Source: an uncultured Bacteroidales bacterium (GTDB lineage Bacteria > Bacteroidota > Bacteroidia > Bacteroidales > UBA932). From it: DNA of 64,000 nt. Below, one piece after another: positions 47,708 through 54,819 of this stretch (position 1 is its first letter; every line of letters starts with the position of its first letter). Made by a program: the position numbers and the translations under genes. Below the pieces are notes generated by a model. That model was not told the origin of the DNA, ran no database searches, and saw only the letters and a program-made list of their open reading frames with translations. The stretch covers positions 7,839 to 71,838 of the forward strand of contig CAMFBM010000003.1 of the NCBI GenBank assembly GCA_945948555.1. The letters run 5' to 3'.

Positions 47708-49978
47708 TCAGATACTTTTGTTTCTGGGGGGGGTAAAACGGATTTCTACCCTCGCAGGCATACCAGGAAAATAGTTCACATCTATTCTTCCGCCCACGGA
47801 TGCAATCATCTTTTCGTATTGATTCGTATCCGAATATGCATTGTCTATGAAGATGATTGTCTCCCCGGCTGAATTTTCTGTCCATCCGATTGTGATTCTG
47901 CCATTGCACTTCTTCAGCGCATCCGATATGAGCGAGTTCATAACTTGGTAAATAACAGGACGGTTAGATTCGATTTCGCACGTTTCTGGACCGGGACAGA
48001 AGACAATCCTGGACTCTCCGTCTGAATGAACGGAACTGTTGATATATATGTCCTCCATTATTTCTCCCACACGTACATTCGAAATGATGACTTTTTCGAA
48101 ATCCCTTGTCTGGAGCGTGTTTCCCATCACGGAATCGAGAAGTTTCAGAAGGCTGTCGTTGGCTCTCTTTACCTTGTCCTCGCAATCTGTCTTTCTTTCA
48201 TCCGAAAGGTCGTTGAAATGGTCTGCAAGCAGGCTGGAATAGAATACGATTTCATTGACAGGTTTGCGGAATTCATCGTTCATAGATGCAAGGAAACTCT
48301 CTTTTTCAGCCACTTCTTCGCTCCTGCGGTAAGCCTGCTTCAATTCTTCGTTACGTTTGTAGGCTTCATCGTTGAAATAGAAGAATCCGGCTTTCACTTC
48401 GTCCTTGTCCTTTGTTCCGGCTACGCTTATGATGTGAACGGAGACGGCCCTTACCTGTCCGCCTGAAGGCATACGCAGCAGTAACTCAATATCTTTTTCC
48501 CCCTCGAAAAAGTCACTTAGCATCATCTGTCTGAAGGTGTCTCTTTTAGGCTCGAGAATGTATTCCAGAATTTTGTCAATGGATATATCCTCCTCGGGTA
48601 ATCCGAAATCTTTGTAGAATGAAGGAGAAAAACGGAAAATCCTGTCTTTAAACATACGCCAGGTATAGGAATTGAGTTCGGACAGGATATACTCCACCTG
48701 AATATTCGATTGTTCCGCCTCCTTCGCCTTTTCGAACAGCTGTTTACGCTGTTTCTTCTGTCTTATGGCCATAAAGCTCGGAGTAATGACCGCCAAAGCC
48801 ACGAAACCTGCAGCAAGCAGAGCAATCAGGACATCAAGTAGAATGTTTATATCCTTGGACCTTTGCAGGAGGGGTAGATTTACAAACTTTACACCTTTGG
48901 GAAATTCGTCGGCATACGGGTGTAGGTTTTTCACAAGCCTCCAGTCCAGCCAATAGTCTTTCTTCAGTTTGCCCCAGGGAATCTGCTTCGGCGCAGTGCC
49001 GTTCAGAAGTTTGTCAACAATGGGGTGAAGCTGTTCCCACATTGAAGGGAAGGGAGTGAAATAACCTCCCATACAGGAGTTCAGGGCATTTATCAGTGGC
49101 AGGTCGAAATGGTCCGGAACCATAGTGAAATACGGCCCTATGTTGTAGGACATCGCAGTGTTGGCGTATTCGTCGCTTTTGAGGTGAAGGAATGAAGTTT
49201 CCTGCTGCTGGGTGAAGAAGATCCATTCCATCTTGAAGGACCCCGGAACTCCGGGATGCCGGTCATTCTTTTCCGGCCACATTGTGCTCACTGGAAAGAG
49301 GGTTATTTTAGAATCCCTGAACTGCTTCAGGTGTATGCGGTCTTCCTGTTCCAGATGGAGGTTGGGCCTGTAATGCTCGGGGTCGTTTCCTATATCTGCC
49401 AATATGTGTTCGCGGATATGGTCGTCTATATAGGTGCTGTCCATAACGGTGACTACATAGTTGGGAAAGCCTAAATCTTTGATGAAATCCAGATTCTTTT
49501 TTACTGCCGGCTCTGCCTCCATCACCACCACATTGGACATTGCTGGCAGCCTGTTTTTCCAGGTCGGATGCACCTGGCCTGCACAGAGTATTGGCGTGTC
49601 TTTCAGCAGAGGGTCGTCCACCTGCGCCACCGCGCCAGCAACATCGTCACCATATACTATTAGAAGGTCAGGTGTCCCCACCTCGCTCTTTACACTGTTG
49701 AGTGCACGACGGAGCAAATTCCTTGCATCGTGTTCGTATTCCTTTTTCTCCCAATATTTTCCGATATAGTCCGAGACATAGAAAAAATGTAGATTGTAGC
49801 GGGAGGTGTCGGCATATTCCTCTTTTGCCGACTTAATGAAACTGTCCCATATCTGGGTGTTTCGGCTGAAAGGGCAGAGTACGGCAATTTCCTTCTTCTC
49901 CGCCGCTCCGTCGCAGGAAACAAGCAGCAAAGCCGCAAGCACCGTGAGAAGTGCAGTTATGATATTCCCCCGTTTCAT
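47708..49978 (-). CDS. Sensor histidine-kinase paralogue, predicted catalytically inactive
   Basis: Lipobox LLVSC, periplasmic domain, TM and PAS-like segment; H-box reads SMNDEFRKP; degenerate HATPase domain. Confidence 0.8.
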   Translation of the reverse strand: MKRGNIITALLTVLAALLLVSCDGAAEKKEIAVLCPFSRNTQIWDSFIKSAKEEYADTSRYNLHFFYVSDYIGKYWEKKEYEHDARNLLRRALNSVKSEVGTPDLLIVYGDDVAGAVAQVDDPLLKDTPILCAGQVHPTWKNRLPAMSNVVVMEAEPAVKKNLDFIKDLGFPNYVVTVMDSTYIDDHIREHILADIGNDPEHYRPNLHLEQEDRIHLKQFRDSKITLFPVSTMWPEKNDRHPGVPGSFKMEWIFFTQQQETSFLHLKSDEYANTAMSYNIGPYFTMVPDHFDLPLINALNSCMGGYFTPFPSMWEQLHPIVDKLLNGTAPKQIPWGKLKKDYWLDWRLVKNLHPYADEFPKGVKFVNLPLLQRSKDINILLDVLIALLAAGFVALAVITPSFMAIRQKKQRKQLFEKAKEAEQSNIQVEYILSELNSYTWRMFKDRIFRFSPSFYKDFGLPEEDISIDKILEYILEPKRDTFRQMMLSDFFEGEKDIELLLRMPSGGQVRAVSVHIISVAGTKDKDEVKAGFFYFNDEAYKRNEELKQAYRRSEEVAEKESFLASMNDEFRKPVNEIVFYSSLLADHFNDLSDERKTDCEDKVKRANDSLLKLLDSVMGNTLQTRDFEKVIISNVRVGEIMEDIYINSSVHSDGESRIVFCPGPETCEIESNRPVIYQVMNSLISDALKKCNGRITIGWTENSAGETIIFIDNAYSDTNQYEKMIASVGGRIDVNYFPGMPARVEIRFTPPRNKSI

Positions 49979-52365
49979 TGTCCAAACAATATTTTGAATG
50001 TTGAGCCCTCTCCCAGTTCGCTTTCCAGCGAAATCTGTCCGCCCATTTGTTCCACAAAAGCCTTGCAGATATACAGTCCAAGTCCGCAGCCCGGGGTAAA
50101 ACTGTCCACCTTGAAGAAGCGGTCAAAGATAAACTCTTGATTTTCAGGGACTATGCCTATACCCTTGTCTGAAACTCTGATTTCTGTTTTCCCGTCTTCA
50201 GTGATATTTATGCTCACTCTTATTTCCGTCTCCGGTTCGGAGAACATTATGGCGTTGAACAAAAGATTGTCAAGAATATTGGTCAGCATAATCCTGTCAG
50301 CCTTGACAATCACCGCATCCTTGCAGAAATCTGTAATTATTTCCCTTTCAGGCCTCTTTTCCCCAATTATCTCCCTCACCAGTCCGCACAGTTCGATGTC
50401 TTCATAATACGGGTTTGCCGGATTTCTGCTTATGCGTGCTGCAGTAAGTATATTCCTTATGGTGTGCTGGAGCTGGGTGGAATTGCAGTGTATGGCTGAT
50501 GAATATTCTTCAAGTTCCATTTCCTCCATAGGCATTCCTGGCATTGCCAGAAGCTGGGCATATCCCACAATCGAGTTAAGCGGAGTGCGAATCGCATGGT
50601 TCATCGAGGCGATGAAGCCCTCCCTTGTGCGTGCAGCCGTAATGATGCGGTTGGTTTCGGCCTCTATGGCTTCCAACTGCTTCTGGTTGTCAATGTTTAC
50701 CATTACCCCGCTTCTAAGGACTCCGTCATCTTCCGGAGACTTTCCCACGTTCATACGCAGTTCATACCAGTGGTACGGCTTGCCGTCAATGGAAATGTAA
50801 GCCTGGAGGGTATAATTCCCGGGTTCTTCAATTCTGAAGAAATTGATTATTCTTTCTTTGAAGAAGTCCGAAGCCTCCATACGTTCCAGACTTTCAATGT
50901 TTTTGTTGTCAAGTTTCCAGGTACTGAAATCAGCCTTGCTCATCAGTTCTTTCAGCAACTTGTTGTTGCAAATGGTCTCATTTGCATAGTCCCTCAGACG
51001 GCGCTCATTCCTGCGGGCCTTCCGGGAATAGTAGCTTATGATAATTATGCTCCCCACCAGAGCTGCGACAAACAGCAGGATACTGGTCATCAAATATGTC
51101 CAGTACAATGCGGGATTCCTGTCTTTGAGCCCGGCATTGGCTATGTTGATGTTTGAGGGTATACTGTTTACGTCCAGCCCTTTGTCCCGCAGAACATCCC
51201 AATTCAGATTATAGGTCGGCGTGTGCTGGAGACCGCGCAGTTCCTCAGCCTTTTCCCCTTTGAGCAGTCTCACTCCCGCGCTCACAGCATCCCTGATCTG
51301 GCTTTCGGCTGTCGGGAAATAGCCTCCTATACACTTGTCGTTCACGAGATAATCTTCTGCGACCATAGTGAAGTACGGTAGGAAACTCGGCCCTTCCACA
51401 AGTCCTCGCGTCTTGTTGTCGTGTTTTGTCTGGATGAAAAAATAGGAAGATCTTTGCAGATAGAAAGCCCAAGTGGTGGGCATCTGATAGATATTCATGC
51501 AGTTCCACGAAGGATCCAACACACTGCGGCAGGAGAAGACAATTTTGTGCTCGTCTTTGGCTATGGCACGAACTCTGTCTTCATTGACTCTCGGATGCAG
51601 ATTGTTGTAGAACTTTGTCTTGTCGAGACTATCCATCTGTTCATTGAGCAGGTTGAACAAAATCTTGTCATTCCAGAGGTGGGGCACATCGAGAAGGGTG
51701 ATAAGGCGGTTGGGATATACGGGCAGGAAGTCTTCGTTGCGGATTTTTTCAATTATCCGGGAAGAGAACTCATTGGCGAACACCAGGTTAGGTTCCAAGT
51801 TCACTCTGTCCATTATGTTCACCATATCGTTCCATCTTCCGCCTTCGTAATTTATCTTCAATAATTCATACTGATAGGGCAGGAATTCCTCACTCCTTAT
51901 GCCGAAACAAATCACGGGGATTGATGCTGTGACCGGATTGGTGTCAGTAATCAGCAACCAGCGGTTTGCATTGCCATAGGAGAGTATGAGGTCTGGCATA
52001 CGACCCTCAGCCCGTAGCTTGAGTATGAGTTCGTTGAGCATAGGCCGCTCGAGGGATTCATATCTTTCGGTAATGTGGGCGAAATGCACCTGAACATCCC
52101 CGATGATGCCCTGTCTTGCAAGTTCCTCCCTTGCCAGACTTGTCCATTTCCTGTATGAGGGGTCGCTTTCATCCGTGGGCCAGTAAAGCAGGACGTTGGC
52201 CTCAATTTTTTCCGCTTCAGGCCTGCACGCACAAAAAAACATCACATAGCAGAGCAGAGTGATGAGTTTTCCTGATATGGCGTATTTTTTTTGTCTTTGA
52301 CAAGGCGGGTCAGGTTTTCTGCAATCCAACTTAAAGTCTGCAAATGGAGACCGTAATTCAAACAC
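49975..52365 (-). CDS. Sensor histidine kinase (GTG start)
   Basis: H-box SMNHAIRTPLNSI, N-box NLLFNAIMF, G1 SDKGIGI, F-box IFDRFFK and G2 GCGLGLYI; periplasmic domain and TM. Confidence 0.92.
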   Translation of the reverse strand: MFELRSPFADFKLDCRKPDPPCQRQKKYAISGKLITLLCYVMFFCACRPEAEKIEANVLLYWPTDESDPSYRKWTSLAREELARQGIIGDVQVHFAHITERYESLERPMLNELILKLRAEGRMPDLILSYGNANRWLLITDTNPVTASIPVICFGIRSEEFLPYQYELLKINYEGGRWNDMVNIMDRVNLEPNLVFANEFSSRIIEKIRNEDFLPVYPNRLITLLDVPHLWNDKILFNLLNEQMDSLDKTKFYNNLHPRVNEDRVRAIAKDEHKIVFSCRSVLDPSWNCMNIYQMPTTWAFYLQRSSYFFIQTKHDNKTRGLVEGPSFLPYFTMVAEDYLVNDKCIGGYFPTAESQIRDAVSAGVRLLKGEKAEELRGLQHTPTYNLNWDVLRDKGLDVNSIPSNINIANAGLKDRNPALYWTYLMTSILLFVAALVGSIIIISYYSRKARRNERRLRDYANETICNNKLLKELMSKADFSTWKLDNKNIESLERMEASDFFKERIINFFRIEEPGNYTLQAYISIDGKPYHWYELRMNVGKSPEDDGVLRSGVMVNIDNQKQLEAIEAETNRIITAARTREGFIASMNHAIRTPLNSIVGYAQLLAMPGMPMEEMELEEYSSAIHCNSTQLQHTIRNILTAARISRNPANPYYEDIELCGLVREIIGEKRPEREIITDFCKDAVIVKADRIMLTNILDNLLFNAIMFSEPETEIRVSINITEDGKTEIRVSDKGIGIVPENQEFIFDRFFKVDSFTPGCGLGLYICKAFVEQMGGQISLESELGEGSTFKILFGQ

Positions 52366-52379
52366 AAAGAATAACCGCG

Positions 52380-52410
52380 CAAAGTTAGAAATAAATGATG
52401 TAATATCAAA
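52380..52410 (-). promoter_or_regulatory. Promoter of the kinase operon
   Basis: Minus strand TTTG-N19-TAACTTTG, ending 14 nt before GTG 52365. Confidence 0.75.
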
Positions 52411-52443
52411 TTTTAAGTAAACTATGGAAAATCAAAGGAAAAA

Positions 52444-52475
52444 TTTGTCCTTTTGTCTAAACTGTATTAACTTTG
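52444..52475 (+). promoter_or_regulatory. Promoter of the receiver/EPS operon
   Basis: TTTG-N20-TAACTTTG. Confidence 0.8.
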
Positions 52476-52496
52476 CCGTTCTTACATCTAACTTAA

Positions 52497-52958
52497 TTGA
52501 TGATGGATATAGGACCTCTGAACAATATTGATTGCAGCAACTTGTCATTGATGATTGTGGATGACATTCCAATCAATACAAAACTTCTTGGAAAACTGCT
52601 TGAACCTGCTGGTTTCAAGACTTTACTTCAATACAACAACAGTCAATTGGCCTTGGACAGCGTGAAGACTGTCAATCCGGATATTATCCTGCTGGATATT
52701 ATGATGCCTGGAGTGGACGGTTTCGCATTCCTCTCTTCTGTACGCGAAGACAAGAGCCTGGACCACGTAAGGGTGGTGCTTGTTTCGGCAGTAAGCGAGT
52801 CTGAAGAAGTCCACAGGGCACTCTCGATGGGTGCAAACGACTATTTGACTAAACCTATCAATGCGAAAAGACTATATTCTTGTGTGGCGCAGCAGATACA
52901 GCAAATTCTGGGGGGGGGATTAAATGACGAGACGGAAAAAGAAGGTATTGATTGCTGA
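52497..52958 (+). CDS. Stand-alone response regulator (receiver domain only)
   Basis: IVDD, DIILLDIMMP, VSA and YLTKP motifs; no output domain. Confidence 0.92.
   Translation: MMMDIGPLNNIDCSNLSLMIVDDIPINTKLLGKLLEPAGFKTLLQYNNSQLALDSVKTVNPDIILLDIMMPGVDGFAFLSSVREDKSLDHVRVVLVSAVSESEEVHRALSMGANDYLTKPINAKRLYSCVAQQIQQILGGGLNDETEKEGIDC
52910..52918 (+). repeat. G9 homopolymer at the junction of the two receiver genes
   Basis: ATTCT-GGGGGGGGG-ATTAAATG. Confidence 0.9.
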
Positions 52959-53304
52959 AAACAAGCAGTTCCTCGTTGATGTGATAAGAGAATCCTTAAG
53001 ATCTGAGGGATATGACTGTGTTTGTGTCAATACCGAGAACGAACTTTACGGGGTTATAGACAATGTTGATGCTGCCGTGGTGGGATTGGATATCTGCCCG
53101 GGAGATCAGCCCCGCAGGGTGGATATGATAGCGGAAATCAAACACGAGTTCGAGTTGCCTTTGCTGGCACTTACAAGCCTGCAGTATTCATCAGTCCGGA
53201 TAGAATTGCTGAAGAAAGGAGCCGATGATGTCCTTACAAAGCCTTTCAATCCTGACGAACTGGCAGTGAGACTGGGCAAGATAATGGAAAGAAATGCCAG
53301 ATGA
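52924..53304 (+). CDS. Atypical stand-alone receiver domain
   Basis: VLIAEN, DAAVVGLDI, LTS and VLTKPFNPDEL; the acidic pocket is degenerate. Confidence 0.85.
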   Translation: MTRRKKKVLIAENKQFLVDVIRESLRSEGYDCVCVNTENELYGVIDNVDAAVVGLDICPGDQPRRVDMIAEIKHEFELPLLALTSLQYSSVRIELLKKGADDVLTKPFNPDELAVRLGKIMERNAR

Positions 53305-54011
53305 AACGTTTTTTGAACATCCTGTTTGCGATTGTGGCTATAGTGCTTCTATCTCCTTTGATGATAGCTATCTCGCTTGTACTGATGATTCAGGGAGGTG
53401 AGTCGCCCATATATTCATCGATAAGGGTGGGGAAGAACTGGAAAAAGTTCCGTATTTACAAGTTCAGGACTATGAACAAGGGGGCCGACAAGAAGCTTAC
53501 AGACCTTCAGTCTATGAATTCTTATATCAGGGTGGAAGGGAATGAAATAGAGATAACGAGGACCTTCAGCAGTGATGCTTATCTGTATGCTGACAACTAC
53601 AAGGTGCGTGAGGACATCTATCTTTCGGAACGGCACAAATGCTTCGAGGGCTGTTTCATAAAGATTGAGAACGATCCGAGAATTACTGAACTTGGCCGTT
53701 TCCTCAGGAAGACAAGTCTGGATGAACTGCCTCAGTTGTTCAATATTCTCAAGGGAGATATGGCTCTGGTAGGGAACAGACCTCTTTCAATTGAGGAGGC
53801 GGAACTTCTGACAAACAATACTGACGGACTCAGGTTTAAGGCTTCGGCCGGTCTGACCGGACTCTGGCAGACGGATGACCGCAAGGACGATATGCCACCT
53901 TCTGAGCGCATCAGACTGGACAATCTGTATGCAGAAAAGGAATCCTTGAGTTTTGACTTTAAACTTATTTTGGTATCTTTCAAGAAAGTTATTACAGGAC
54001 ATAATGAATAG
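53301..54011 (+). CDS. Priming sugar transferase (undecaprenyl-P glycosyl-1-P transferase family)
   Basis: RVGKNWKKFRIYKFRTM, DPRITELGRFLRKTSLDELPQLFNILKGDMALVGNRP and GLTGLWQ. Confidence 0.93.
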   Translation: MKRFLNILFAIVAIVLLSPLMIAISLVLMIQGGESPIYSSIRVGKNWKKFRIYKFRTMNKGADKKLTDLQSMNSYIRVEGNEIEITRTFSSDAYLYADNYKVREDIYLSERHKCFEGCFIKIENDPRITELGRFLRKTSLDELPQLFNILKGDMALVGNRPLSIEEAELLTNNTDGLRFKASAGLTGLWQTDDRKDDMPPSERIRLDNLYAEKESLSFDFKLILVSFKKVITGHNE

Positions 54012-54819
54012 CCGCATATTGGCAACCACATTGGCTCTCATCCTGAGTACAGTCGCAGGTGCTCAGGGGTTGCCTACTAAACAGATACGTGTTGACAGCA
54101 CTCTAATGATACTCAATGCGATGACGGTGGAGGACTATATGAATATGGAAATCCCTCCTCTGGACACATTGTATTACAATGCCTTCAGTATGTCCAATGC
54201 TGTGAAGTACTATGAGGAGGAGGTAAATTACTACACCTGTGCGGTGAGGAACGAGCAGATGAAGCCGCTCGAATGGTTGAGGTTAGTCACTTCTGCAAGT
54301 TACGGCAATACTGACATCGTCGGCATCCTCCGCAATGAGGCCAGTTATCCCATCTGGATGGAGAGCAGCACCAGGCAGAGGAATTTCTTCTTCAATGTCG
54401 GACTTACGGTGAACATACCTTTCTCGGACATATTCAATACTCACAACAGGGTCAGGCAGGCCAAGGCCAAGGTCCGTCAGACCCAGTATCGCAGGCAGTC
54501 CGAGTTGGACAATATAAAACAGCAGATTATTGGTCTTTACTGCGACATCATTTCCGGCATCAATTCCCTTCAGAGTGCAGCGGAAAGGCTGGTAGTGGCA
54601 AAGGCACAATATGATTTTGCCGAGAAGGATTTCGCAAACAACAAGATTACTGCCGAGGTTCTTTACAGATGCAAGTCGTATGAGACTGCCGCCACTCAAG
54701 ACTATGAGAGACTGAAACGTGACATAAATCAGGCCCTGCTCAGCCTCGAAGTACTTTCCTGCACCAAAATCATCAAGCCTGTTTCGGATGTTACACCTGG
54801 ACCTCTCACTGAACAATAA
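54004..54819 (+). CDS. Short TolC/OEP-family outer-membrane protein
   Basis: Signal peptide and one helix-beta-beta-helix OEP-like repeat (FNVGLTVNIPF...ARAQYDFAEKDF-like heptads). Confidence 0.65.
   Translation: MNSRILATTLALILSTVAGAQGLPTKQIRVDSTLMILNAMTVEDYMNMEIPPLDTLYYNAFSMSNAVKYYEEEVNYYTCAVRNEQMKPLEWLRLVTSASYGNTDIVGILRNEASYPIWMESSTRQRNFFFNVGLTVNIPFSDIFNTHNRVRQAKAKVRQTQYRRQSELDNIKQQIIGLYCDIISGINSLQSAAERLVVAKAQYDFAEKDFANNKITAEVLYRCKSYETAATQDYERLKRDINQALLSLEVLSCTKIIKPVSDVTPGPLTEQ

What the first reader, a model, noticed from the sequence alone, without database searches (positions are those of the whole stretch)
47708..49978. Full-length pseudokinase: H-box His replaced by Asp and ATP-lid boxes lost
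Seen: the active paralogue reads FIASMN-H-AIRTPLN, while this protein reads FLASMN-D-EFRKPVN (Asp codon 48275-48277). The N-box is altered (NSLISDAL), G1 is degenerate, and the F and G2 boxes are absent. The 756-codon frame is nevertheless intact. An ATGA overlap at 49975-49978 couples it to the active kinase, which suggests 1:1 stoichiometry. Inference: an inactive heterodimer partner. An Asp at the phospho-His position could be phosphomimetic or even a phosphoacceptor.
Basis: partly seen in the sequence, partly recalled or inferred. Interest (0 to 1): 0.72.

Follow-up and report, generated by a model that had tools for sequence, protein, structure and literature searches.

The report
Conserved dead sensor kinase beside live paralogue
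This gut Bacteroidales gene encodes a full-length membrane sensor that has lost everything needed to act as a histidine kinase, yet is kept under strong selection next to an active paralogue, so it is most likely a non-catalytic co-sensor: a new example of a kind of protein already known.

Summary
ORF 47708-49978(-) is intact (756 aa). Asp568 (codon 48275-48277) sits at the phospho-His position, both N-box Asn are changed, and a 26-residue deletion removes the end of G1, the F box and G2. An ATGA overlap joins it to an active kinase (49975-52365).

The 44 orthologues found (45-71% identity; the named ones are Candidatus Cryptobacteroides) all lack His. dN/dS is 0.08-0.16, equal to or lower than the active neighbour, and every domain is constrained. 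His and the lid were lost once, on the stem of this clade. The sister clade and same-genus relatives keep "FLASMGHEIRTPL" and all ATP boxes, and they too sit just downstream of an A-type kinase. The A-B tandem is therefore ancestral and was once doubly active.

Both proteins carry a type-I periplasmic-binding-protein (Venus-flytrap) sensor. In the pseudokinase this sensor is as conserved as in the active partner.

"Pseudokinase partner" is supported. "Asp as phosphomimetic or phosphoacceptor" is not: in the 37 aligned orthologues that position reads D/E/S/A/N/V/P/T. Physical heterodimerisation is inferred, not shown. Pseudo-histidine kinases are a recognised class (DivL, FasC, RocA, RetS), so this is a new member of it. 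Interest is moderate.

The parts
47708..49978 (-). Pseudo-histidine kinase 'B', 756 aa, intact frame
49913..49978 (-). N-terminal signal or anchor helix with a lipobox-like LVSC (residues 1-22)
   Evidence: Read from the sequence. The family consensus keeps 'SC'. The AF2 model has a helix at 4-21. Lipidation is inferred.
48851..49909 (-). Periplasmic type-I PBP / Venus-flytrap sensor domain (residues 24-376)
   Evidence: AF2 pLDDT 90, pTM 0.90. Foldseek matches 3lft and CD0873 (6hni) at E 4e-8 to 1e-6, TM 0.55-0.66, plus LacI/RBP and GluA/GABA-B VFT domains. It is the best-conserved part of the protein.
48764..48850 (-). Transmembrane helix (about residues 377-405)
   Evidence: Hydrophobic stretch. 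The AF2 helix 375-418 covers it.
48374..48670 (-). Cytoplasmic PAS-like domain (residues 437-535)
   Evidence: AF2 secondary structure. Foldseek hits to PAS-DHp-CA kinases.
48110..48370 (-). DHp (HisKA-like) helical hairpin without the phospho-acceptor His (residues 537-623)
   Evidence: Pfam HisKA 25 bits, sub-threshold. The PDB profile aligns HK853 H260 to this column.
48275..48277 (-). GAT codon, Asp568, at the phospho-His position
47735..48082 (-). Remnant CA domain (residues 633-748). The N-box Asn are replaced, G1 is degenerate, and the ATP lid (F and G2 boxes) is deleted.
   Evidence: dN/dS is 0.15-0.26.
49975..49978 (-). ATGA stop/start overlap between kinase A and pseudokinase B
   Evidence: A stop/start overlap is present in 9 of 10 loci; L015 has a 2-nt gap.
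49975..52365 (-). Active paralogous sensor kinase 'A' with the same architecture and all catalytic boxes. The exact start codon is uncertain.
52497..52958 (+). Divergently transcribed single-domain response regulator RR1 (canonical D-D-D-S-K)
52924..53304 (+). Second single-domain receiver RR2 (E-N in place of the acidic pair; the phospho-Asp is kept)
44706..47666 (-). SusC-like TonB-dependent transporter, 41 nt downstream of B on the same strand
42625..44694 (-). SusD-like lipoprotein

Best explanation
Gene B (47708-49978) encodes a catalytically dead but functional sensor. Its parts, from the N-terminus, are:
- a periplasmic Venus-flytrap (type-I PBP) ligand-binding domain, held at the inner membrane by an N-terminal anchor and a transmembrane helix;
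- a cytoplasmic PAS-like domain;
- a DHp hairpin without the phospho-acceptor His and without the E/DxxT/N phosphatase motif;
- a shrunken CA domain that cannot bind ATP.

Shown: B descends from an active B-type kinase that already sat directly downstream of an A-type kinase. In one Cryptobacteroides lineage B lost its catalytic parts once. Since then it has been kept under purifying selection as strong as that on A.

Inferred: B is made together with A by translational coupling and associates with it, most simply through the DHp and/or the flytrap domains. It acts as a second, non-catalytic ligand-sensing subunit that sets A's kinase/phosphatase balance. A then signals to the adjacent single-domain receivers. 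The likely signal is a carbohydrate, because A-B pairs sit in SusC/SusD and glycoside-hydrolase or exopolysaccharide loci. Whether B activates or inhibits A is unknown.
For: Dead:
- There is no His in any of the 37 aligned orthologues, and no other conserved His in the DHp.
- The positions H+1 and H+4 vary.
- There is no HATPase_c hit.
- A 26-residue lid deletion is present and the N-box Asn are not conserved.

Selected:
- 44 intact orthologues at 45-71% identity were found.
- dN/dS for B is 0.16, 0.12 and 0.08. In the same genome pairs A gives 0.17, 0.18 and 0.07. Every B domain is 0.26 or lower.
- In 9 matched loci B's periplasmic and PAS domains are as conserved as A's (0.59 vs 0.58; 0.47 vs 0.47). 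B's DHp and CA are relaxed but not free (0.50 vs 0.65; 0.39 vs 0.50).

Single loss from an active ancestor:
- The pseudokinase clade has support 100 and is nested among kinases that keep H and all ATP boxes.
- Active B next to A is seen in L007 and in same-genus genomes G022 and G024.

Coupling to A:
- A and B are adjacent in 10 of 10 loci, and stop and start overlap in 9 of them.

Physical pairing in the superfamily:
- Natural single-chain fusions of two such modules exist. In some of them a His-less module without CA precedes an active module.

Sensor fold.

Carbohydrate context.

Precedents for kinase/pseudokinase heteromers: FasB/FasC and RetS/GacS (PMC12675982, PMC12189002).
Against: - No direct evidence of an A-B interaction was obtainable.
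- The natural fusions are in other subfamilies of the superfamily, not in the A and B lineages themselves. They support the idea only by analogy.
- In one strain (L016) partner A carries an in-frame stop while B is intact. A 98%-identical relative has Trp at that position.
- The orthologous pseudokinase is patchy: it is absent from most same-genus species sampled.
- dS is near saturation in two of the three pairs used for dN/dS.
Confidence: 0.6

Rival explanations
1. B works on its own as a homodimeric pseudokinase scaffold, in the manner of DivL. Its dead DHp/CA core binds a response regulator (RR1, RR2 or RR3) or another protein. It passes on the flytrap signal without touching kinase A.
For: - DivL and RetS are among the structural and sequence matches of the cytoplasmic part.
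- The CA remnant and the DHp stay under purifying selection.
- Several single-domain receivers with no output domain lie in the locus.
- In L016 B is intact while A carries a stop.
Against: - A and B are adjacent in all 10 loci, with a stop/start overlap in 9.
- The DHp positions after the His column, where receivers dock in HK853-type kinases, are poorly conserved in B compared with A.
- DivL keeps an ATP-binding CA domain; here the lid is deleted.
Confidence: 0.2
2. B is a dedicated inhibitor (a 'poison subunit'). It forms inactive heterodimers with A and lowers signalling unless its own ligand is present, as RetS does to GacS.
For: - The RetS/GacS precedent (PMC12189002).
- RetS is among the PDB profile hits.
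- B has neither a His nor a working CA domain, so an A:B dimer would have at most one catalytic site and one acceptor.
Against: Nothing here tells inhibition from activation. Co-translation with A from overlapping genes fits a constitutive partner better than a titrating antagonist, which is usually regulated separately.
Confidence: 0.15
3. Asp568 is functional: either a phosphomimetic that locks the DHp in a 'phosphorylated' state, or an acyl-phosphate acceptor.
For: Acidic residues (D or E) occupy the position in 21 of 37 orthologues.
Against: - The position also reads S, A, N, V, P and T in lineages where the protein is equally conserved.
- No ATP-binding site exists in B to phosphorylate it.
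Confidence: 0.03
4. B is a decaying pseudogene with no function.
For: The catalytic motifs are lost. The DHp and CA are less conserved than in A.
Against: - 44 intact full-length orthologues were found.
- dN/dS is 0.08-0.16 in every pair and 0.26 or lower in every domain.
- The sensor domain is as conserved as in the active kinase.
Confidence: 0.01

Closest known systems
FasB/FasC of the group A Streptococcus FasBCAX system (PMC12675982)
   Same: Two paralogous membrane sensor-kinase-like proteins are encoded side by side in one operon. One is proposed to be a pseudokinase. Two-hybrid data show a heteromer rather than homodimers. Output goes to one response regulator.
   Different: - FasC keeps the phospho-acceptor His (H246) and only its kinase domain is dispensable. 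Here B has lost the His and the ATP lid as well, so it can be neither donor nor acceptor.
- The sensor domains are unrelated: transmembrane in Fas, a periplasmic flytrap here.
- The phylum and the output differ (an sRNA promoter via FasA, against single-domain receivers here).
RetS-GacS of Pseudomonas aeruginosa (PMC12189002; PDB 6dk7/6dk8 hit)
   Same: A non-canonical sensor kinase with its own periplasmic carbohydrate-type sensor binds the DHp of an active kinase and modulates it. Exopolysaccharide genes are among the outputs.
   Different: RetS and GacS are unlinked genes, not a co-translated tandem pair. RetS keeps receiver domains and some phosphatase or siphoning activity. Its sensor fold differs.
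DivL of Caulobacter crescentus (PMC4211667; PDB 4q20 hit)
   Same: A full-length HisKA-type protein without the phospho-acceptor His, kept by selection and used as a non-catalytic signalling module.
   Different: DivL has Tyr at the His position and an ATP-binding-competent CA fold. It is cytoplasmic or polar, binds DivK~P and controls the unlinked kinase CckA. Here the lid is deleted, the replacing residue is not conserved, and the partner is the adjacent gene.
RocA, pseudokinase accessory of CovS (named in PMC12675982)
   Same: A membrane-anchored, kinase-derived, catalytically dead protein that modulates an active sensor kinase.
   Different: From my own knowledge of RocA, not checked here: RocA is not adjacent to covS, has no extracytoplasmic ligand-binding domain of this type, and acts mainly through its transmembrane part.
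Class C GPCR heterodimers (GABA-B GB1/GB2): an analogy only. VFT structures are among the Foldseek hits.
   Same: Two paralogous membrane receptors each carry a type-I PBP/Venus-flytrap ectodomain, and only one subunit carries the output activity.
   Different: The cytoplasmic machinery is unrelated. There is no evidence here that the flytrap domains heterodimerise.

Membership tests
Functional HisKA-type sensor histidine kinase | Phospho-acceptor His in the H-box of DHp helix 1 | tested here: not met
   Asp568 in the window. None of the 37 aligned orthologues has His there.
Functional HisKA-type sensor histidine kinase | HATPase_c domain with N, G1, F and G2 boxes (ATP/Mg binding and lid) | tested here: not met
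   No Pfam HATPase_c hit. A 26-residue gap covers the end of G1, F and G2. The N-box Asn read S and D.
Functional HisKA-type sensor histidine kinase | DHp four-helix-bundle hairpin homologous to HisKA | tested here: met
   HisKA 25.0 bits, just under the 26.9 cut-off. Profile against PDB: HK853 at E 3e-8. The AF2 model has helices 537-564, 568-586 and 593-623.
HisKA phosphatase | E/D at H+1 and T/N at H+4 (the E/DxxT/N motif) | tested here: not met
   The window reads D-E-F-R-K. Both positions vary across orthologues.
Pseudo-histidine kinase (class discussed in PMC12632262) | Recognisable histidine-kinase homologue lacking one or more catalytic functions | tested here: met
Pseudo-histidine kinase (class discussed in PMC12632262) | Retained by selection, not a decaying gene | tested here: met
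   dN/dS is 0.08-0.16. 44 intact orthologues were found.
Kinase/pseudokinase heteromer (FasBC-like, RetS/GacS-like) | Physical association of the pseudokinase with the active kinase | not testable with these tools
   Only indirect evidence: adjacency in 10 of 10 loci with a stop/start overlap in 9, and natural two-module fusions in paralogous subfamilies.
DivL-type pseudokinase | Tyr at the His position, an intact CA fold able to bind nucleotide, and binding of a phosphorylated receiver | tested here: not met
   The residue is variable and never Tyr in this clade. The lid is deleted. Receiver binding is not testable.
Type-I periplasmic binding protein / Venus-flytrap sensor domain | Two Rossmann-like alpha/beta lobes joined by a hinge | tested here: met
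   AF2 pLDDT 90, pTM 0.90. Foldseek: 3lft at E 4e-8, TM 0.55/0.66; CD0873; LacI and RBP families.
Type-I periplasmic binding protein / Venus-flytrap sensor domain | Sequence membership in a curated PBP family (Pfam ABC_sub_bind or Peripla_BP) | tested here: not met
   No Pfam or NCBIfam hit on residues 24-376. No PDB sequence hit in that region.

The most novel reading that the evidence does not exclude
The whole superfamily of flytrap-sensor kinases works as obligate hetero-pairs of two paralogous receptors. That would make it a bacterial counterpart of GABA-B-type heterodimeric Venus-flytrap receptors. Because the pair is obligate, one subunit can repeatedly lose its His, its CA domain or both.

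The data here show at least 7 independent losses. About 7% of modules in this superfamily lack His, against 0.9% of HisKA domains overall. The pair has also been fused into one chain several times.

On this reading the window's B is the fully dead end-state of that process. It would be a pure ligand-sensing subunit that trans-activates the single catalytic subunit A.
Probability: 0.35. Interest if true: 0.65.

Novelty: new member of a known kind. Interest (0 to 1): 0.45.

Why it matters
Pseudo-histidine kinases are recognised, but few have been studied. About 0.9% of HisKA domains lack the His (PMC12632262).

This case comes with a clear evolutionary history. An ancestral tandem of two active flytrap-sensor kinases is still present in same-genus relatives. 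One member then lost all its catalytic parts, in a single event, while its sensor stayed as constrained as that of the live partner. Active and dead versions of the same pair can therefore be compared directly, which gives a natural experiment on what a dead kinase subunit contributes.

The case also points to an undescribed family of carbohydrate-locus sensors in gut Bacteroidales. These differ from the well-known hybrid two-component, SusR and ECF/anti-sigma regulators of polysaccharide utilisation loci.

Tried and rejected
- Decay was rejected by dN/dS and by the conservation of orthologues.
- An alternative conserved His in the DHp was looked for; none is invariant or nearly invariant in residues 541-625.
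- A phosphatase-only role was rejected because the E/DxxT/N motif is not conserved.
- The idea that B is a recent degenerate copy of its neighbour was rejected. A and B are 19-22% identical and lie in distant clades.
- Foldseek with the full-length model returned only kinase cores, so the periplasmic domain was modelled separately.
- No Pfam, NCBIfam or PDB sequence match was found for the sensor domain.
- Sequence look-ups in earlier scan notes linked only to notes on this same genome. A His-less module from L008 linked to nothing.
- The sigma-70 promoter scan was not used, because Bacteroidota promoters differ. Reading the sequence shows a TAnnTTTG-type motif on each strand of the 52366-52496 intergenic region; this was not tested statistically.
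- The two structure-prediction jobs were both used, so no fused doublet could be folded as a stand-in for an A:B complex.
Full report
**1. Observation**

The frame 47708-49978 on the minus strand is open for 756 codons. The codon GAT at 48275-48277 encodes Asp568, within FLASMN-D-EFRKPVN. The upstream gene, 49975-52365(-), ends in TGA inside the ATGA at 49975-49978.

Pfam gives the downstream protein a sub-threshold HisKA match (25.0 bits against a 26.9 cut-off) and no HATPase_c. The upstream protein scores 47.4 bits for HisKA and 85.6 bits for HATPase_c.

A profile of the orthologue family aligns the HK853 phospho-His (H260) to the Asp column.

Profile-profile alignment of the two orthologue families gives probability 100, E 3e-49, over 700 columns at 19% identity. 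It shows one 26-residue gap in the downstream protein. The gap covers exactly the end of G1, the F box and the G2 box, which together form the ATP lid. The two N-box Asn read Ser and Asp, and G1 reads D-N-A-Y-S.

**2. Is it a decaying gene?**

No. A search found 44 orthologues at 45-71% identity. Those that carry a name are from Candidatus Cryptobacteroides or unclassified Bacteroidales.

In an alignment of 37 of them, no sequence has His at the H-box position. The residues there are D15, E6, S5, A3, N3, V2, P2 and T1. No other His in the DHp is conserved. All sequences share the shortened CA domain.

Nei-Gojobori dN/dS was computed for three genome pairs:

| Gene | window-L011 | L001-L009 | L003-L010 |
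|---|---|---|---|
| Pseudokinase B | 0.16 | 0.12 | 0.08 |
| Active neighbour A | 0.17 | 0.18 | 0.07 |
| SusC | 0.10 | 0.09 | 0.04 |

Every domain of B, including the CA remnant, is at 0.26 or below. dS is high in two of the pairs. The L001-L009 pair (dS 0.75) is the most reliable.

Mean pairwise identity was compared across nine matched loci:

| Domain | B | A |
|---|---|---|
| Periplasmic | 0.59 | 0.58 |
| PAS-like | 0.47 | 0.47 |
| DHp | 0.50 | 0.65 |
| CA | 0.39 | 0.50 |

The sensor half is therefore under the same constraint as in a working kinase. The transmitter half is relaxed but not free.

**3. Where did it come from?**

A profile search of 1.84 billion representative proteins found 127 representatives below E 1e-30. 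The roughly 150 best hits were examined, and most share the overall architecture.

The closest non-orthologous relatives of B (P0165-P0178, 400-670 bits) all keep H, both N-box Asn, D-G-G and G-G-G.

A tree was built on the periplasm-to-DHp columns, leaving the CA domain out. It shows three things:
- The pseudokinases form one clade with support 100 and a long stem (0.48).
- That clade is nested among these active kinases.
- The active neighbour A falls in a distant clade.

B is thus not a degraded copy of its neighbour. It belongs to a separate, old subfamily that lost catalysis once.

The A-B tandem is older than that loss:
- In metagenome locus L007 an active B (P0165) follows an A-type kinase (38% identical to the A profile, E 6e-134) and precedes a SusC gene.
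- Two same-genus genomes (G022, G024) hold three A-B tandems. In each, B reads FLASMGHEIRTPLNAI and has all ATP boxes.
- These active pairs lie beside SusC/SusD plus a GH106 rhamnosidase, and beside a GH10 xylanase.

**4. Pairing**

In the window and in nine orthologous loci, B always follows A on the same strand.

| Junction between A and B | Loci |
|---|---|
| 4-nt ATGA overlap | window, L001, L009, L011, L016 |
| 1-nt overlap | L003, L010 |
| 7-nt overlap | L017 |
| 2-nt gap | L015 |

One or two single-domain receivers are transcribed divergently from A.

Downstream of B lie SusC, SusD and a GH29 fucosidase in most loci. Beyond the receivers lies a Wzy-type exopolysaccharide operon in five loci (window, L003, L010, L011, L015). 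In two loci (L015, L017) the pair sits only beside polysaccharide-synthesis genes.

No DNA-binding output domain is present in any of these loci.

**5. The wider superfamily**

About eleven representatives are proteins of 1330-1560 aa made of two complete modules in one chain. In P0186, P0187 and P0190 the first module lacks His (E, S, S) and ends just after the DHp with no CA domain; the second module is fully active. In P0182 and P0202 the second module has K or Y at the His position but keeps its ATP boxes. Locus L008 encodes such a fusion, followed by an active kinase and then one with His replaced by Arg.

On the tree the His has been lost at least seven separate times. About 13 of roughly 175 modules outside the orthologue set lack it. 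That is some 7%, against 0.9% of HisKA domains in general (PMC12632262).

These fusions are in subfamilies other than A and B. They support physical pairing in this superfamily by analogy, not directly.

**6. The sensor**

The periplasmic part was modelled alone with 28 diverse homologues and gave pLDDT 90 and pTM 0.90. Foldseek places it in the type-I periplasmic-binding-protein fold. The closest matches are the ABC_sub_bind-type proteins 3lft and CD0873 (E 4e-8 to 1e-6, TM 0.55-0.66), followed by LacI/ribose-binding proteins and the flytrap domains of glutamate and GABA-B receptors. No sequence family recognises it.

It is rare: 12 of 151 genomes sampled evenly across the order, nearly all from different genera, have it. 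The orthologous pseudokinase was not found in the other 24 same-genus species sampled; two of them carry the active B form instead.

The full-length model (pLDDT 74) shows, in order, an N-terminal helix, the flytrap, a transmembrane helix, a PAS-like domain, the DHp and a compact CA remnant. Its cytoplasmic half matches PAS-DHp-CA kinases, DivL among them.

The N-terminus carries a lipobox-like LVSC, and the family consensus keeps 'SC'. Anchoring at both ends is an inference.

**7. Mechanism**

Shown:
- B can neither bind ATP nor be phosphorylated on a conserved residue.
- B lacks the phosphatase motif.
- B is nonetheless selected, most strongly in its sensor.
- B is inherited as a unit with A.

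Inferred:
- B associates with A and feeds a second ligand input into A's kinase/phosphatase switch.
- A signals to the adjacent receivers.

The direction of the effect on A, the contact surface (DHp, flytrap or both), and the ligand are all unknown.

Two rival readings cannot be excluded: a DivL-like independent scaffold and a RetS-like inhibitor. The idea that the Asp itself is functional is very unlikely, given how variable the position is.

**8. Comparison and novelty**

Pseudo-histidine kinases are an acknowledged class (PMC12632262). Known examples include DivL (PMC4211667), FasB/FasC heteromers with a proposed pseudokinase (PMC12675982) and RetS/GacS (PMC12189002).

Earlier notes of this scan list several other tandem kinase/pseudokinase pairs in other phyla. 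These are unchecked leads, but they suggest the arrangement is recurrent.

This case is therefore a new family within a known kind. It is well supported by comparative data and has an unusually clear history.

Noticed in passing
window 52924-53304 (+): The second single-domain receiver has E-N where CheY has the acidic pair D12-D13. It keeps the phospho-accepting Asp, the Thr and the Lys.
   Followed up: partly
window 42570-42635 (-): Only the first 22 codons of the GH29 alpha-L-fucosidase survive here (73% identical to the N-terminus of the L011 enzyme). In orthologous loci the full gene follows SusD, so in this genome the locus has lost its glycosidase.
   Followed up: partly
L016 5653-8004 (+): In one metagenome strain the active partner A carries an in-frame TGA where the 98%-identical P0056 has Trp. 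This splits the flytrap from the kinase, while the pseudokinase next to it is intact. It could be a strain-specific nonsense mutation or an assembly error.
   Followed up: partly
L008 348-9037 (+); proteins P0179-P0190, P0202: Natural single-chain fusions of two flytrap-kinase modules (1330-1560 aa) exist, and L008 holds an array of four modules. The modules alternate between His-bearing and His-less forms (S, R, K, Y).
   Followed up: partly
window 52240-52365 (-): The start of the active kinase is uncertain. The longest frame starts at GTG 52365, but the 96%-identical P0045 is 41 residues shorter. A TAACTTTG motif (Bacteroidota -7 type) lies at 52380-52387 on the minus strand and another at about 52469-52476 on the plus strand.
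   Followed up: no
window 40638-42557 (+): A 639-aa predicted lipoprotein with an NPDP repeat linker and no Pfam match sits where relatives have the fucosidase.
   Followed up: no
window 53953-54819 (+): A short (288 aa) protein with a single OEP (TolC-like) repeat (56 bits) lies inside the Wzy-type exopolysaccharide operon. It is conserved at the same place in L010, L011 and L015. No Wza-type export protein was seen.
   Followed up: no
G000:C3:74509-74793, just beyond the window's right end: A third sensor kinase (805-aa frame) matches only the DHp of the pseudokinase (E 3e-4). It has no shared sensor domain.
   Followed up: no
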